From IMG/VR virus record IMGVR_UViG_2541047695_000003: a DNA stretch of 34,489 nucleotides, one strand, 5' to 3'. Positions 23,689 through 27,854 of this stretch are shown here, piece by piece. The position numbers and the translations under genes were made by a program. This stretch comes from a virus (Duplodnaviria > Heunggongvirae > Uroviricota > Caudoviricetes). The stretch's first letter is position 1. Each line of letters begins with the position of its first letter. The notes below the pieces were generated by a model. The model did not search any database. It was not told the DNA's origin and was given only the letters and a program-made list of their open reading frames with translations.

Positions 23689-24108
23689 ATGCTAAAAACT
23701 AGGCTTATCACCGATTACATCAATTCTTTAATAGGTCAGGAGTTCGTTCAAGGCGAGAATGATTGCAATATAATTGCATGTAAGATCATCGATATTCTCG
23801 CTGGTACTGACCTATATAATTCTCTTTATAAAAAATATTCAACTAAAGAAGAAGGCTTGAAAATCTGCAAAGAATTAAGCGGATACACAAATATCCTTCA
23901 ACCAATTAAGAAACATTTCAAATTAGTCACTGATGATTTACAGGACGGCGACTTACTGGTCACAGCCCACAAATTAGGAAACCGCAAATATTATTCCGTA
24001 GTTCCTCATTATTCCGGTTATGGCCTCGTTGAAGAAGATGGTATCTGGATGACCATTCCTGTTTCAGACATTGACTATGAACAAGTTTATAGATTCGGGG
24101 GTGAATAA
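23689..24108 (+). CDS. Minor tail protein (139 aa), lambda K-position; possible papain-like (NlpC/P60-type) fold
   Basis: Start reassigned to ATG 23689 with GGAGG SD 8 nt upstream (track start 23533 overlaps the previous gene); an NDC motif could mark a catalytic Cys, but this is tentative. Confidence 0.5.
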   Translation: MLKTRLITDYINSLIGQEFVQGENDCNIIACKIIDILAGTDLYNSLYKKYSTKEEGLKICKELSGYTNILQPIKKHFKLVTDDLQDGDLLVTAHKLGNRKYYSVVPHYSGYGLVEEDGIWMTIPVSDIDYEQVYRFGGE

Positions 24109-27100
24109 TGGGATTTGAAATATTAGTAGGCGCGGTGATCGCTGGTGCTTCGGCGGGGATGGCGGCAGCCGCAACATTTTCTGTTATGACCGCAGTCGCT
24201 ATCGGTATGGCTGCTGGTGCAATGACCTTGATCGCTTCCACTGTAGGCGCACCAAAAACACCGAAAGTACAAAGCCCAGATAATGCGGTGACACTAGGAA
24301 CATCAAACGATCCGAAAACAGTATTACCCGTTCTTTTTGGTACTACCCGCACGGGTGCAATCTGCGTTTACAAGGCAATTTCACAGCGTGAAAATAACAA
24401 GCTGGTACAAATTTTTGCTATTGCCGAAGGTGAGATCGATCACTTTAAAGCACTGCACATCGATAATAAAAACGTTCTCATTAGCCAGAATATGACAATT
24501 CGTGATGGCATTCTCGATAAAGGAAACATTAAAGACGAATACCGCAAAGTTTTAGAAGTCGAGTTTCGCACGGGTAAAAATCCTAACACTGCATTGGATT
24601 TAGCTAAACATCATTTGGGCGCTGATTGGGATGATCGGTATCAGGGTAACGGCATTGCGACCATGTGTATTGTTTTACGTCGTGATGACAAATCTTTGGC
24701 TGCTGGTGTTGATATTCTCCAGCCTAATAGCCAGGTAGCGGTCGATGTTATGGGCTTAAAGATTCGTAACCTTGAAACCAATGCTATTGAGGCTAGCACT
24801 AACGGCGTGGACCAGATTTTCCATTATCTGACAAATACAAAGTATGGTCTTAGTGTACCGATTGAAAATATTAACGTTGATTCATTCCTGAAAGTGCGTA
24901 AACAAGTACGCCAGATGGATTTACATTCCAACGGTGCATGTGATCCGAACGCCAGCTTTAAAGAGAACTTAACTAGCCTTATGCAGACTTTCGGCGGGGT
25001 GATGTTCGAATCCTTTGGACGTATTACGCTGAAACTGGATGCTCCTGATATTGTTAAGCATACCTTCAATGAAGACAATATCATGATGGGAAAAGTATCA
25101 CTGAAAACAGGTGGCACTAACGGTTATTTCAATACCATTAACGCGATGTATCAAGAACCATCAATCGACTATTCAGAGCAAATGCTACGTTATCCGGCTG
25201 ATGCTGAAAACGATGCTACTATTCGTCAAGATGGTCGAATTATCGCTAAAGATATTGAATATCGTTTTGTTAAGTCTAAAGCCCAGATTGATAAACTTGC
25301 GAGTGTAGAACGAAATAAATCTCGTATCACTCAGGTTATCAGCTTTATGACTACTGACGCATTCACCGCCGAAGTATGGGACGTTATCAGCGTAACCTAT
25401 GATGAATTGAAACTGAATAATTCACTTTGGCGCATTACTGCAATTGATCGTTCTATTGATTCTGGTATTGCTGGGATGATGACTATCACCGCCACAGAAT
25501 ATAATTCTCAGGTTTATACTGACCTGAACTATGCGGCAACTCCAGACAATAGACCTACTGGTTTACCGGATTCAATGACAGTACAGAAACCGACTAATTT
25601 CAGAATTAAGGCAACTGGTGAGACAATCCACGGTAAAAACGTTACTTTGACATGGGATGCACCGGAAGATTTTAACCGCTACGGTTTCCAGATTGATTAC
25701 CGTGTAAGTGGATCGCCTAACTGGATTAAGCTGGGGCAGACTTCACAGCAAATTTTCAATATCAATGCACTGGCAAAAGATCGCTCCTACGATTACCGCG
25801 TTTGTGCTTTCGGTATTATTGCTCGTTCCGAATGGGTGGAACTGGTTAACCAGAATCCTACTGTTACCTATGAATTGCCGACTCCGGTTATTCGAATCAA
25901 AAATCAGGGTAGCACGCCTGGTACTTTCGAAGGCAATGATCTGATTATCGAATGGGAAAATCAGCAACAATTAGATGTGATGATCAACGGTGAAGCTAAC
26001 AAGTTTAGTGACCTGTTTGAAGCATACATTATCAAGGTAACTAACAAGGCTGGTAAGTCTATTCAGTACCGTACCCGCGATCCTGAATCATGGACTTATA
26101 CGCTTGATATGAACCAGTTTAACGGCCTTTCCCGTGAATTGACGGTAGAAGTATCAGTCAAGGGCTATAACAACTCAGAGAGCGCCCCAGCGCGTTTAGT
26201 GGCTATCAACCCACAACATAAGCCGATGAAAGGTTTTAGTGCGCGTGGTGGCTTTAATACTGCGTTTGTTAGCTGGGCGGATGACGTAGAACATGACTAT
26301 GCAGGGTCAATCATCCAGTATGCAACCGATAATACTTTCTCCGATGCAAGGGCAGTGACTACCAATAGCGTTAGTCATACTTCCTTTGATTTGGCTGACG
26401 GTGATTATTATATCCGTGGTGCTCACTATGATATTTTCGGTATGGATGATGCTGTTTGGTCTGAACCGTATTTCATGCAAATGAAATCTACCATTAGCTG
26501 GGACGATCAGGACAAAGAAGCACTGGAAGACCTGATTGGTTTACAAGATCGCTTAGATGAAACCATCGCGGATGCTATTGCTCAAGCTGGCGCTAATGCC
26601 GATGCTAAGATTGATGCAATGCATAAACAGATTACTACCGAGACAGGGCAGACGGTCCAAGCCTCAGCCGATACTCTCAAGAGTCTGATTGCTACCAGTG
26701 AGCAAGCCAGCGCAACTAAGATTGATCAGGTTAAAGCTGAACTGAAAGGCGATATCACCAAAGAAGTTAGCGCATCCGCTACTACCCTGAAACAAGCAAT
26801 TGCTACCAGTGAGGCAGCAAGCGCAAGTAAGATTGATCAAGTTCGGGTAGAAATGGATGGCAAGATTGCTGGTGTGAATCAGGAAGCAGATGTAAAAATC
26901 GATGCTTTGAAGGGAACCATTAACAGCAAATATAATCTGGCAGTTAATGCAGATGGTCGCGTGGCTGGTATTCATATGAGCGCAACCAATGATCCGGCAG
27001 AACCGACAAGAATCATCTTTACGGCTGATAAAATCGCGGTAGCTCCACAAGACGGATCAGAAGTTTGTCCGTTTGGCATCGAAGATAACAAAGTTTATCT

Positions 27101-27854
27101 TGATAATGCGATGATTCGTAATGCTGCAATTGGCACAGCCCAGATTAGTGATGCTAGTATCACCACGGCTAAGATCGGCACAGCCCAGATTAACGGCGCT
27201 CACATCCAACACGCACAGATCGGAACAGGTCATATCATTGATGGCTCTATCGATAATGCTAAAATTGGTAACTATATCCAGTCTTATAACTGGAATGGTA
27301 ACGATGGATGGTATATCGGCAAAGATGGCACTTGTCATTTTAGACACGCTAATATTCGTGGTCATTTGGTGGCTGATTCCGGCGAAATGAACAACGTAAC
27401 GATTAATTCAAGTTGCCGCATTTTGGGTATGCTTGATGCTAATCAGGTGCGTGGTGACTTCGTGAAAGTGGTTGGTAGGAGTTTCCCGCATCGCCAACCA
27501 AACTGGCCTGATGGTGCAATCACTGTAAGGGTCGAAGATGATCATCCATTCGATCGCCAAATAGTGATTCCAGCGATTCATCATAACGGGTCTGTTCGTA
27601 GTGGCGAAAGTAGCGATCATTGGGATACTTGCCGACTAATCGTTAAGAAAAATGGTGGTGTTCTATATGATCGCACTGCAACTTCTGGCTGTATGTACAG
27701 TGGAGTTATTGACATGCCAGCCGGACACGGGGCAGTAACAATGACTTTTGAAGTTTACTGTAAGGGCGTTAACAACTATAACCCAAGTGCATATATCAGC
27801 GATCTAACGGTAATGGTAACTAAGAAAGCCGCTACTGGTATTTCTGTTTCTTAA
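24108..27854 (+). CDS. Tail tip attachment / host-specificity protein, lambda J-like (1248 aa) with N-terminal lambda gpI-like hydrophobic segment
   Basis: By recall of lambda: C-terminal ~150 aa match the lambda J receptor-binding region (DDHPFDRQIV, DMPAGxGxVxxTF, VMVxKKxAxGISV); N-terminal ~95 aa resemble the C-terminal half of lambda gpI (hydrophobic Gly/Ala stretch, APKTPK, VLPVLFG); central region has Ig/FN3-like segments and repeats ATSE(Q/A)ASA(T/S)KIDQV. Confidence 0.9.
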   Translation: MGFEILVGAVIAGASAGMAAAATFSVMTAVAIGMAAGAMTLIASTVGAPKTPKVQSPDNAVTLGTSNDPKTVLPVLFGTTRTGAICVYKAISQRENNKLVQIFAIAEGEIDHFKALHIDNKNVLISQNMTIRDGILDKGNIKDEYRKVLEVEFRTGKNPNTALDLAKHHLGADWDDRYQGNGIATMCIVLRRDDKSLAAGVDILQPNSQVAVDVMGLKIRNLETNAIEASTNGVDQIFHYLTNTKYGLSVPIENINVDSFLKVRKQVRQMDLHSNGACDPNASFKENLTSLMQTFGGVMFESFGRITLKLDAPDIVKHTFNEDNIMMGKVSLKTGGTNGYFNTINAMYQEPSIDYSEQMLRYPADAENDATIRQDGRIIAKDIEYRFVKSKAQIDKLASVERNKSRITQVISFMTTDAFTAEVWDVISVTYDELKLNNSLWRITAIDRSIDSGIAGMMTITATEYNSQVYTDLNYAATPDNRPTGLPDSMTVQKPTNFRIKATGETIHGKNVTLTWDAPEDFNRYGFQIDYRVSGSPNWIKLGQTSQQIFNINALAKDRSYDYRVCAFGIIARSEWVELVNQNPTVTYELPTPVIRIKNQGSTPGTFEGNDLIIEWENQQQLDVMINGEANKFSDLFEAYIIKVTNKAGKSIQYRTRDPESWTYTLDMNQFNGLSRELTVEVSVKGYNNSESAPARLVAINPQHKPMKGFSARGGFNTAFVSWADDVEHDYAGSIIQYATDNTFSDARAVTTNSVSHTSFDLADGDYYIRGAHYDIFGMDDAVWSEPYFMQMKSTISWDDQDKEALEDLIGLQDRLDETIADAIAQAGANADAKIDAMHKQITTETGQTVQASADTLKSLIATSEQASATKIDQVKAELKGDITKEVSASATTLKQAIATSEAASASKIDQVRVEMDGKIAGVNQEADVKIDALKGTINSKYNLAVNADGRVAGIHMSATNDPAEPTRIIFTADKIAVAPQDGSEVCPFGIEDNKVYLDNAMIRNAAIGTAQISDASITTAKIGTAQINGAHIQHAQIGTGHIIDGSIDNAKIGNYIQSYNWNGNDGWYIGKDGTCHFRHANIRGHLVADSGEMNNVTINSSCRILGMLDANQVRGDFVKVVGRSFPHRQPNWPDGAITVRVEDDHPFDRQIVIPAIHHNGSVRSGESSDHWDTCRLIVKKNGGVLYDRTATSGCMYSGVIDMPAGHGAVTMTFEVYCKGVNNYNPSAYISDLTVMVTKKAATGISVS

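What the first reader, a model, noticed from the sequence alone, without database searches (positions are those of the whole stretch)
24108..27854. J-like tip protein appears chimeric: gpI-like N-terminal segment fused to a J body with lambda-J-like receptor-binding C-terminus
The first ~95 residues resemble the C-terminal half of lambda tail assembly protein I (hydrophobic Gly/Ala-rich stretch, APKTPK, VLPVLFG), while no separate I-like gene precedes it; the last ~150 residues closely resemble the lambda J receptor-binding domain. That predicts use of a LamB-like or related outer-membrane porin and an enterobacterial host, although the genome is AT-rich. These similarities are from recall and need alignment.
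Basis: established knowledge. Interest (0 to 1): 0.55.

Follow-up and report, generated by a model that had tools for sequence, protein, structure and literature searches.

The report
Prophage tail-tip protein with built-in plug
This gene encodes the tail-tip protein of an E. coli prophage whose first ~95 residues match the membrane-inserting plug that phage lambda makes as a separate protein (gpI) and whose last ~180 residues are a swappable lambda-J-type receptor-binding domain; both resemblances are real, but this is the normal build of a widespread phage family, not a one-off chimera.

Summary
ORF 24108-27854 (1248 aa) is intact. Residues ~12-96 are homologous to the C-terminal half of lambda gpI, which forms two hydrophobic helices, a plug and beta-strands (family profile vs PDB gpI, E=2.4e-6; 0 of 2000 shuffles reach the real score). 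Residues 1068-1248 are homologous to the lambda gpJ receptor-binding domain (41% identity, E=1e-34; Pfam PF12421, E=1.4e-34). No separate I-like gene exists, and the host is E. coli (prophage in 57 of 5426 complete genomes).

- The body is not lambda-J-like by sequence. It is a T5-pb3 / GTA-megatron-type baseplate hub.
- The gpI-like module heads all 49 full-length relatives examined, behind the same gene order (TMP, Dit, hub, DUF6950, tip). In T5 pb3 the matching strand is contiguous with the hub. It is therefore a family trait, not a recent fusion.
- The real mosaicism is at the C-terminus. Receptor-binding domains are exchanged as cassettes after a conserved junction.
- LamB cannot be predicted. 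The closest solved domain is the OmpC-binding A8 gpJ, and the best phage match is only 55% identical. A trimeric porin is a reasonable guess.

Verdict: an ordinary, under-annotated new member of a known kind.

The parts
24108..27854 (+). Tail-tip hub / central-fibre protein, 1248 aa (whole ORF including stop)
   Evidence: Single ORF. SD GGGGGTG and a TAATG overlap with the upstream gene. 93-98% identical proteins occur in many E. coli genomes.
24120..24245 (+). Residues 5-46: two uncharged Ala/Gly-rich hydrophobic helix-length segments. Counterpart of lambda gpI helices H1/H2 (about 101-155) and, by position, of the RcGTA megatron iris/penetration domain
   Evidence: Only region of the protein with KD >1.6; aligned with gpI 104-155. 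Profile hit to gpI 118-212. The gpI H1/H2 description is from PMC11101478.
24246..24293 (+). Residues 47-62 (GAPKTPKVQSPDNAVT): plug-like segment aligned with the lambda gpI plug (159-175)
   Evidence: BLASTP 48-92 vs gpI 156-208, 42% identity, E=6e-7. MAFFT alignment. Plug residues from PMC11101478.
24315..24392 (+). Residues 70-95 (KTVLPVLFGTTRTGAICVYKAISQRE): beta-strand segment matching gpI 188-212 and T5 pb3 262-287
   Evidence: Profile A1 vs PDB: gpI E=2.4e-6, T5 pb3 262-310 E=3.8e-5. Local HMM. Predicted strands at 80-91 (pLDDT is below 50 up to residue 78 and averages 42 over residues 71-80 and 63 over 81-90).
24396..25577 (+). Residues 97-490: baseplate-hub domains (T5 pb3 / megatron type), with a weak Phage-tail_3 match
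   Evidence: Family profile vs PDB: T5 pb3 E=8e-13. Foldseek top hits are T5, DT57C, Chi and JBD30 hubs and the RcGTA particle (low-confidence model). Pfam PF13550 19.7 bits, below cut-off.
25578..26507 (+). Residues 491-800: fibronectin-III / Ig-like domain region
   Evidence: Pfam fn3 506-575, weak. Titin and FN3 hits to profile positions 494-591.
26508..26897 (+). Residues 801-930: helical stretch containing a 37-aa (111-nt) internal duplication (26688-26755 and 26799-26866)
   Evidence: Direct repeat, 78% identity, spacing 111 nt. Alleles differ in length by 37 aa. Identity to relatives drops at 851-900 through a gap.
26898..27404 (+). Residues 931-1099: lambda-type central straight fibre (Phage_Tail_Tip)
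   Evidence: PF09327 E=4.4e-17 at 931-1092. PDB hits to T1, F2-pyocin and other J-like fibres.
27405..27467 (+). Residues 1100-1120 (NSSCRILGMLDANQVRGDFVK): conserved junction before the variable receptor-binding domain, shared with lambda gpJ (NCTINGTLRAEKIVGDIVK)
   Evidence: Invariant C, I, G, L, A, GD and K across the family alleles and lambda. The same junction precedes several unrelated C-terminal domains in relatives.
27468..27851 (+). Residues 1121-1248: lambda-J-type receptor-binding domain (Ig_GpJ_C), with variable blocks at about 1128-1133, 1162-1172, 1188-1196 and 1217-1221
   Evidence: PF12421 E=1.4e-34. 41% identity to lambda. PDB 9wca (A8 gpJ) E=2.4e-44. Foldseek top four hits are A8 and lambda gpJ fibres. 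Variable blocks.
23575..24108 (+). Upstream DUF6950 gene, in the position lambda K occupies between the hub gene and the plug module. Start uncertain: 23575 per RefSeq; the domain begins at the Met at 23689
   Evidence: PF22262 E=5.5e-12. RefSeq annotation. Present upstream of the tip gene in 49 of 49 relatives and in CRP-406.
22989..23642 (+). Hub protein (DUF2163 / phiJL001 gp84 N-terminal attachment domain): the HDI-bearing half of a two-piece baseplate hub
   Evidence: PF09931 E=8.7e-6, 26.4 bits vs cut-off 26. PHROG 2048 'tail protein' E=5.9e-28. RefSeq 'DUF2163 domain-containing protein'.
22429..22989 (+). Distal tail protein
   Evidence: PHROG 1302 'distal tail protein' E=1.3e-16.
19949..22378 (+). 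Tape measure protein
   Evidence: PHROG 13674 E=2.9e-67.

Best explanation
The ORF encodes the large subunit of a two-piece siphophage baseplate hub, fused to a lambda-type central fibre, in a temperate E. coli phage. The arrangement resembles the 'Hub + Megatron' of the Rhodobacter gene transfer agent.

Shown here: domain order and homologies.
- Residues 1-95 are the cis-encoded equivalent of the virion-resolved half of lambda gpI: two hydrophobic helices, a plug, and beta-strands.
- Residues ~97-490 are pb3-type hub domains.
- These are followed by FN3/Ig domains, a helical stretch, a lambda-type straight fibre, a conserved junction, and a lambda-J-type receptor-binding domain.

Inferred by homology to the lambda, T5 and RcGTA structures.
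- Three copies form the closed tip.
- The N-terminal plugs and helices sit in the lumen and hold back the tape-measure C-terminus and the DNA.
- Binding of the trimeric receptor-binding domain to an outer-membrane protein, most plausibly a trimeric porin, twists the fibre and releases the FN3 strings.
- The hub domains rotate, the plug opens, and the hydrophobic N-terminus drops into the outer membrane.

The N-terminal module is an inherited family trait. The receptor-binding domain is an exchangeable cassette. Lambda's L-K-I-J gene order is colinear with hub-DUF6950-[I-like + tip] here. The only differences are that I and J are separate genes in lambda, and that lambda has extra ubiquitin-like (I) and JAB (K) domains.
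For: Homology to gpI: with the shuffle control.

Contiguity in T5. pb3 262-312 aligns across the family profile 71-120, which spans the 'gpI-like' strand and the start of the hub. The T5 plug hairpin tip (233-Leu-Phe-Gly) lies just upstream of that stretch (PMC10038345).

Role of gpI. Residues 101 onward form H1/H2, a plug at 159-175, and strands threaded through gaps in the gpJ hub domains. The helices are lost from the density on opening (PMC11101478). Xiao et al. proposed that gpL + gpI + the gpJ N-terminus correspond to pb3 (PMC10721106). The RcGTA megatron begins with an iris/penetration domain (PMC7296036).

Hub identity.

Synteny and conservation of the N-terminal module: (49 of 49).

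Receptor-binding domain homology.

Cassette exchange.

E. coli prophage.
Against: - No experiment or solved structure exists for this protein.
- Both AlphaFold models are low-confidence (mean pLDDT 50 and 53.5). The N-terminal 78 residues are unmodelled, so the placement of the module in the tip lumen rests on homology alone.
- The gpI similarity covers only ~85 residues, at E~1e-6.
- RcGTA megatron is not detectable by sequence with the N-terminal profile, so equivalence with its iris domain is positional.
- The lambda gpJ hub is only weakly alignable (hhalign probability 13%).
- The receptor is unknown.
Confidence: 0.75

Rival explanations
1. Recent chimera. A lambda-like phage fused its I gene, minus the N-terminal half, to its J gene in this lineage.
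For: The order I-like segment then J-like C-terminus is colinear with lambda I-J. No separate I gene is present.
Against: - The body is not lambda-J-like. lambda_TipJ scores 193.8 bits against 1950, and the best body matches are T5 pb3-type hubs.
- The neighbours are DUF2163 hub and DUF6950, not L and K.
- The module is present in all 49 relatives down to 46% identity, and hydrophobic N-termini occur in the Vibrio, Providencia and Roseobacter phage tips.
- T5 pb3 has the same strand in cis.
- No DNA-level similarity to lambdoid J genes was found beyond a 78-nt stretch.
Confidence: 0.08
2. The N-terminal resemblance to gpI is compositional. It would then be a generic Ala/Gly-rich membrane anchor or signal-like sequence with no common origin.
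For: Half of the aligned region is low-complexity hydrophobic sequence. The single-sequence PDB hit to gpI is weak (E=0.2).
Against: The significant BLASTP alignment lies in the polar part (48-92 vs 156-208, E=6e-7). Shuffles that keep composition never approach the real score, either for the whole C-half or for the polar part alone. The profile E-value against the whole PDB is 2.4e-6.
Confidence: 0.03
3. The receptor is specifically LamB, as for lambda.
For: The fold family is the same and identity to the lambda receptor-binding domain is 41%. Lambda inserts four loops of that domain into the LamB lumen (PMC11101478).
Against: - The OmpC-binding A8 gpJ is the closer solved relative (151 vs 119 bits). 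9wcb is the A8-OmpC complex. A8 specificity is described in PMC11338833.
- The variable blocks of the domain differ from both lambda and the sister alleles.
- Sister prophages carry alleles that diverge to 66-83% DNA identity in this domain, which suggests several specificities within one family.
Confidence: 0.15
4. Artefact: two genes (a small I-like gene plus the tip gene) were merged by a sequencing or assembly error.
For: None beyond the unusual architecture.
Against: The same continuous ORF with the same start is found in dozens of independent E. coli genomes and IMG/VR contigs, and in relatives at 46-52% identity.
Confidence: 0.01

Closest known systems
Lambda gpI (tail tip assembly / 'insertion' protein I), C-terminal half (residues ~100-223; PDB 8iyk chain I)
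   Same: It has two uncharged hydrophobic helices, a P-K/R-x-P-K/R-h-Q-S/T-x-D plug motif, and a VLPVL(F/Y)G..R.G strand. Homology is significant. By homology it would have the same stoichiometry as the hub (three copies).
   Different: Here the module is the N-terminus of the tip protein rather than a separate polypeptide. The gpI N-terminal ubiquitin-like domain (Pfam PF06805, gpI 14-97) is absent, and so is a JAB-containing K partner. The linker between plug and strand is ~6 residues shorter.
Lambda gpJ central tail fibre, and the engineered A8 gpJ chimera (PDB 8xcj/8xck, 9wca/9wcb)
   Same: The C-terminal ~320 residues match: Phage_Tail_Tip straight fibre, the conserved NC.I.G.L.A..I.GD junction, and the Ig_GpJ_C receptor-binding domain with invariant DDH.F.RQI, DMP.G.G and SD..V.V.KK motifs.
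   Different: The hub and N-terminal two-thirds are not recognisably lambda-J-like, and the FNIII-A / HDII-insertion domains were not detected. Identity in the receptor-binding domain is only 41% to lambda, about 45% to A8, and at most 55% to any phage in the collection. Receptor specificity therefore does not transfer.
T5 baseplate hub protein pb3 (PDB 7zhj)
   Same: It is the best sequence and fold match for residues ~70-620. The plug region lies directly N-terminal of the conserved (I/L)PVVYG strand, in cis.
   Different: pb3 also contains HDI in the same chain, whereas here HDI is a separate DUF2163-type protein. The pb3 plug is a beta-hairpin without the long Ala/Gly-rich helices. T5 uses separate pb4 and pb5 for the fibre and receptor binding.
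RcGTA Hub (g13) + Megatron (g15), and related roseophage tips
   Same: It is a two-piece hub split at the same place. The small subunit carries the phiJL001-gp84/DUF2163 attachment domain. The large subunit begins with a short hydrophobic 'iris/penetration' segment that closes the channel (PMC7296036). The tail-tip genes have the same order (TMP, ~200-aa unannotated gene, hub-like 'minor tail protein L', DUF6950, tip) in Roseobacter phage CRP-406. Foldseek hits the GTA particle at E=1.9e-4.
   Different: No sequence-level match to megatron was found with the N-terminal profile. GTA g14 is described as a peptidase, whereas DUF6950 here has no demonstrable catalytic triad. The GTA megatron ends in a fibre-binding domain, not a lambda-type fibre and receptor-binding domain.

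Membership tests
Lambda TipJ (NCBIfam NF049904, full-length gpJ family) | Whole-protein score at or above the curated cut-off (1950 bits), i.e. gpJ-like over its full length | tested here: not met
   193.8 bits, from residues 1069-1248 only. BLASTP finds no other significant segment.
Ig_GpJ_C (Pfam PF12421), gpJ C-terminal receptor-binding domain | Score above the gathering threshold (26.2 bits), with the conserved core motifs of the solved domain | tested here: met
   119.5 bits, E=1.4e-34. 41% identity to lambda. Invariant DDH.F.RQI, DMP.G.G and SD..V.V.KK motifs. Foldseek top hits are 9wca, 8xcj, 9wcb and 8xck (low-confidence model).
Phage_Tail_Tip (Pfam PF09327), central straight fibre | Score above the gathering threshold (22 bits) | tested here: met
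   62.6 bits at residues 931-1092.
Lambda gpI family as defined by Pfam (PF06805 Lambda_tail_I) | N-terminal ubiquitin-like domain (lambda gpI residues 14-97) | tested here: not met
   No hit in the tip protein, or in any of the neighbouring ORFs that were scanned. PF06805 covers only gpI 14-97.
gpI virion-resolved module (H1/H2 helices, plug, beta-strands; gpI ~101-223) | Sequence homology to gpI 118-212 beyond what composition explains | tested here: met
   Profile E=2.4e-6 vs PDB. BLASTP E=6e-7. 0 of 2000 shuffles reach the real score.
gpI virion-resolved module | Location in the tip lumen as a trimeric plug contacting the tape-measure C-terminus, released on receptor binding | not testable with these tools
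   Only monomer AlphaFold2 is available, and residues 1-78 have pLDDT below 50.
Siphophage baseplate hub protein (T5 pb3 / megatron type) | Hub-domain fold (HDII-HDIV) and sequence relationship to solved hubs | tested here: met
   Family profile vs PDB: pb3 E=8e-13. The eight Foldseek hits with E<=0.001 are all siphophage or GTA hub chains, but the model has mean pLDDT 50 and TM-scores of 0.28-0.38. The sequence evidence is therefore the stronger.
Phage-tail_3 (Pfam PF13550) | Score above the gathering threshold (23 bits) | tested here: inconclusive
   19.7 bits for this sequence. Homologues with 73-86% identity carry a precomputed PF13550 hit.
LamB-dependent phages | Adsorption requires LamB | not testable with these tools
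   Sequence is nearer to the OmpC-binding A8 domain than to lambda's. No receptor data exist.

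The most novel reading that the evidence does not exclude
This family may preserve the unsplit ancestral state of the lambda I-J pair. Lambda gene I would then have arisen by fission of a megatron-type tip gene exactly at the plug/hub boundary. That fission would have been coupled to the gain of a ubiquitin-like domain on I and a JAB domain on K. Under this reading the Ubl/JAB pair exists to deliver or process a plug that is no longer tethered in cis. If so, this prophage is a natural control for the long-unexplained roles of the gpI N-terminal domain and of gpK in lambda tail assembly.
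Probability: 0.4. Interest if true: 0.5.

Novelty: new member of a known kind. Interest (0 to 1): 0.3.

Why it matters
1. It gives sequence-level support to the structure-based proposal that lambda gpL + gpI + the gpJ N-terminus together equal one T5-type hub protein. The gpI-like strand and the hub are one chain here and in T5, and the gene order is colinear with lambda L-K-I-J.

2. It exposes an annotation gap. Pfam's only gpI model covers the ubiquitin-like half, so the plug / membrane-insertion half is invisible to Pfam. These tip proteins are therefore labelled only by their C-termini.

3. The family offers a set of natural lambda-J-type receptor-binding alleles behind a conserved junction, in E. 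coli, Salmonella and relatives. These are raw material for receptor mapping and for the kind of gpJ chimeras already used to retarget lambda particles.

None of this is surprising to a tail-structure specialist.

Tried and rejected
- Megablast of the gene against the phage collection found nothing. The phage has no close sequenced relative there.
- A single-sequence search of residues 1-100 against 1.84 billion representatives gave only 8 hits, none of them gpI. Those from proteins over 1,000 aa that matched the whole module did so at the N-terminus.
- A profile search of the 5.8-billion-protein set with the N-terminal alignment returned only short fragments and was uninformative.
- Pfam has no family for the N-terminal module.
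- I thought residues 97-125 (LVQIFAIAEGEIDHF...) resembled lambda gpJ 19-50 by eye. The family HMM did not align them, so I do not claim this.
- DUF6950 as a K-like NlpC/P60 domain: BLASTP found nothing. hhalign aligns the conserved G..DC with K's Cys motif at only 3.5% probability. No His is conserved and there is no PDB hit. This remains open.
- The hub protein has no PDB sequence match.
- AlphaFold2 of residues 1-500 and of the last 215 residues gave low-confidence models. I used them only as supporting evidence.
- The species-genome scan returned a single locus because the search patterns were too specific.
- No tandem repeat was found by TRF. The internal duplication was found by the repeat finder instead.

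Full report
WHAT IS THERE

ORF 24108-27854 (+) is a single open frame of 1248 codons. A GGGGGTG ribosome-binding site lies upstream, and the start overlaps the stop of the upstream gene as TAATG. It closes a tail module:
- tape measure protein, 19949-22378;
- distal tail protein, 22429-22989;
- a DUF2163 / phiJL001-gp84-type hub protein, 22989-23642;
- a DUF6950 protein, 23575-24108;
- this gene.

The window is a temperate phage of E. coli. Proteins 93-98% identical are common in E. coli assemblies, with 71-74% relatives in Providencia and Salmonella. The 6.5-kb region around the gene is found in 57 of 5426 complete E. coli genomes. In strain ES2 the element sits next to a truncated ycdX together with a serine recombinase.

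THE N-TERMINAL OBSERVATION IS REAL

Residues 5-46 carry no charge and are Ala/Gly-rich. This is the only strongly hydrophobic stretch in the protein. They are followed by APKTPKVQSPDN and, after a short linker, KTVLPVLFGTTRTG.

- BLASTP against lambda gpI aligns 48-92 with gpI 156-208 (42% identity, E=6e-7 for the pair).
- A profile of eight family N-termini, searched against every PDB sequence, finds lambda gpI first (E=2.4e-6, profile 12-96 vs gpI 118-212). It then finds T5 pb3 (E=3.8e-5, profile 71-119 vs pb3 262-310).
- PHROG 32 ('tail assembly protein') matches through its C-terminal half.
- Because half of the segment is low-complexity, I shuffled gpI while keeping the composition of its hydrophobic and polar halves. 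The real sequence scores 33.2 bits against 0.2 +/- 3.3 (maximum 17.8; 0 of 2000). The polar part alone scores 23.9 bits against a maximum of 6.7.

The matched part of gpI is exactly the part seen in virions. It comprises two predicted transmembrane helices H1/H2, a plug at 159-175 that closes the tube, and beta-strands threaded through gaps in the gpJ hub domains. The helices disappear from the density when the tip opens on LamB (PMC11101478; also PMC10721106, and PMC12617516).

Pfam's gpI family covers only residues 14-97, the N-terminal domain. That explains why none of the Pfam or NCBIfam annotations seen here flags this module.

THE C-TERMINAL OBSERVATION IS REAL

Residues 1073-1247 align with lambda gpJ 952-1131 at 41% identity (E=1e-34). 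Pfam gives Ig_GpJ_C (E=1.4e-34) preceded by Phage_Tail_Tip (E=4.4e-17). The PDB search returns the gpJ fibre fragments. A low-confidence model of the last 215 residues has the four gpJ fibre entries as its top structural matches. An alignment with lambda shows invariant core motifs separated by four variable blocks.

THE 'J BODY' IS NOT LAMBDA-LIKE

- NCBIfam's full-length lambda_TipJ model scores 193.8 bits against a cut-off of 1950, all of it from the last 180 residues.
- BLASTP and hhalign find at most a weak colinear match in the Phage-tail_3 region.
- A profile of the family instead finds T5 pb3 (E=8e-13).
- The eight structural matches with E<=0.001 to the model of residues 1-500 are hub chains of T5, DT57C, Chi, JBD30 and the Rhodobacter GTA particle (model mean pLDDT 50, so supporting evidence only).

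With the small DUF2163-type hub protein upstream, this is the two-piece hub known from RcGTA (Hub + Megatron). There the large subunit also begins with a short hydrophobic 'iris/penetration' segment that closes the channel (PMC7296036). The T5 authors note that the GTA pair aligns with pb3 (PMC10038345).

IS IT A CHIMERA?

At the N-terminus, no.
- The same gene order (TMP, Dit, hub, DUF6950, tip) occurs in Providencia phage PSTCR7, Roseobacter phage CRP-406 and Vibrio phage henriette. Their tip proteins also begin with a hydrophobic Ala/Gly-rich segment followed by an (I/V)(I/V)YG..(x)..G motif.
- Among 49 full-length relatives recovered from IMG/VR and one Buttiauxella genome (46-100% identity in the hub), 49 start with the module and 49 have DUF6950 in the fetched locus.
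- In T5 pb3 the homologous strand is contiguous with the hub domain that follows it, and lies just after the plug hairpin.
- By contrast, the C-half of lambda gpI finds 1281 phage records. In the 60 spread-sampled rows, wherever the matched stretch carries an annotated gene it is a separately named tail or tail-assembly protein I gene, never a J-type gene.

Cis linkage is therefore the norm in this family, and lambda's arrangement is the alternative. The gene orders L-K-I-J and hub-DUF6950-[I-like + tip] are colinear. The differences are the I/J break and lambda's extra Ubl (I) and JAB (K) domains. Which state is ancestral was not resolved here.

At the C-terminus, yes.
- Relatives whose bodies are 70-94% identical (an uncharacterised protein of 1192 aa; the Salmonella proteins) drop to 8-25% identity after residue ~1100.
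- 23 of the 49 relatives carry several different C-terminal domains. Most of these follow a recognisable version of the junction NC.I.G.L.A..I.GD, which lambda gpJ shares.
- Within E. coli, prophages that are 95-98% identical over the 6.5-kb region have receptor-binding-domain DNA in discrete classes of >=99, 83, 77, 74 and 66% identity.
- No lambdoid J gene shares more than 78 nt with it. The relationship to lambdoid domains (at most 55% amino-acid identity) is therefore old, not a recent transfer.

RECEPTOR

The similarity does not identify LamB.
- The closest solved relative is the A8 gpJ fragment (E=2.4e-44, against 1.5e-34 for lambda).
- Its domain, taken from a natural E. coli phage gpJ variant and grafted onto lambda gpJ, retargets lambda to OmpC (PMC11338833). 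It has been solved in complex with OmpC (entry 9wcb).
- Lambda's domain inserts four loops into the LamB lumen, one domain per porin monomer (PMC11101478).
- The receptors documented in the sources I read for this fold are trimeric porins (LamB, OmpC, and OmpF for evolved lambda). A trimeric porin is my inference, at roughly 0.6, with OmpC somewhat more likely than LamB.
- The 1174-aa side-fibre-like protein at 14181-17705 probably supplies a first, reversible contact.

MECHANISM

Inferred from the homologous structures, not shown here. Three copies close the tip. The N-terminal plugs and helices occupy the lumen beneath the tape-measure C-termini. Receptor binding by the trimeric receptor-binding domain is transmitted up the straight fibre and the helical stretch. 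The FN3 strings detach, the hub domains rotate, the plug opens, and the hydrophobic N-termini reach the outer membrane, followed by the tape measure and the DNA.

VERDICT

The gene is a well-populated but generically annotated member of a known kind of tail-tip protein. Its value is as a clear sequence bridge between lambda gpI, T5 pb3 and megatron-type tips, and as a source of receptor-binding-domain alleles. Interest is modest.

Noticed in passing
window 26688-26755 and 26799-26866: A 111-nt (37-aa) direct duplication (78% identity) lies inside the helical stretch of the tip gene. Alleles in other genomes are exactly 37 aa shorter (1211/1221 vs 1248/1258 aa), so fibre length is polymorphic.
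   Followed up: partly
window 27309-27854 compared with E. coli genomes: The receptor-binding-domain DNA falls into discrete allele classes (>=99, 83, 77, 74 and 66% identity) among prophages that are otherwise 95-98% identical. Differences cluster in four blocks (residues ~1128-1133, 1162-1172, 1188-1196, 1217-1221).
   Followed up: partly
window 14181-17705 (+): A 1174-aa long-tail-fibre-like protein (Gp34_trimer domain plus a C-terminal Peptidase_S74 intramolecular chaperone) is encoded between the head and tail genes. It is probably a second, side-fibre receptor-binding protein.
   Followed up: no
window 10372-12372 (+): The major capsid protein is fused to a prohead serine protease domain (Peptidase_S78 at 40-162, HK97-type capsid at 407-662; 666 aa).
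   Followed up: no
window 23575-24108 (+) and homologues in L005-L007: The DUF6950 family has an invariant G..DC motif. It aligns with the NlpC/P60 catalytic-Cys motif of lambda K, but the match is not significant (hhalign probability 3.5%) and no His is conserved. The gene sits where K sits in lambda.
   Followed up: partly
E. coli records matching window 22000-28500 (e.g. NZ_CP080126, NZ_CP065607, NZ_CP024134): Some copies of this prophage region carry an extra NUMOD3-domain (homing-endonuclease-like) gene and, in one case, an IS1. These split the match into pieces. The window lacks them.
   Followed up: no
L002 (PQ671644.1, Escherichia phage DCP80) 7917-11675: A 141-kb record classified as Straboviridae/Gaprivervirus encodes a siphovirus-type tip protein 38.5% identical to this one, with a similar N-terminal hydrophobic/plug module. 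The taxonomy label or the assembly looks odd.
   Followed up: no
window 31344-33038 (-); L003 29661-31340: A large serine recombinase lies at the end of the element. In E. coli ES2 the prophage abuts a truncated ycdX, which suggests integration into that gene.
   Followed up: no
window 19258-19566 and 19596-19937 (+): Two small ORFs sit in the tail-assembly-chaperone position before the tape measure gene. RefSeq names the first 'cytochrome' in the ES2 copy, which looks like a misannotation.
   Followed up: no
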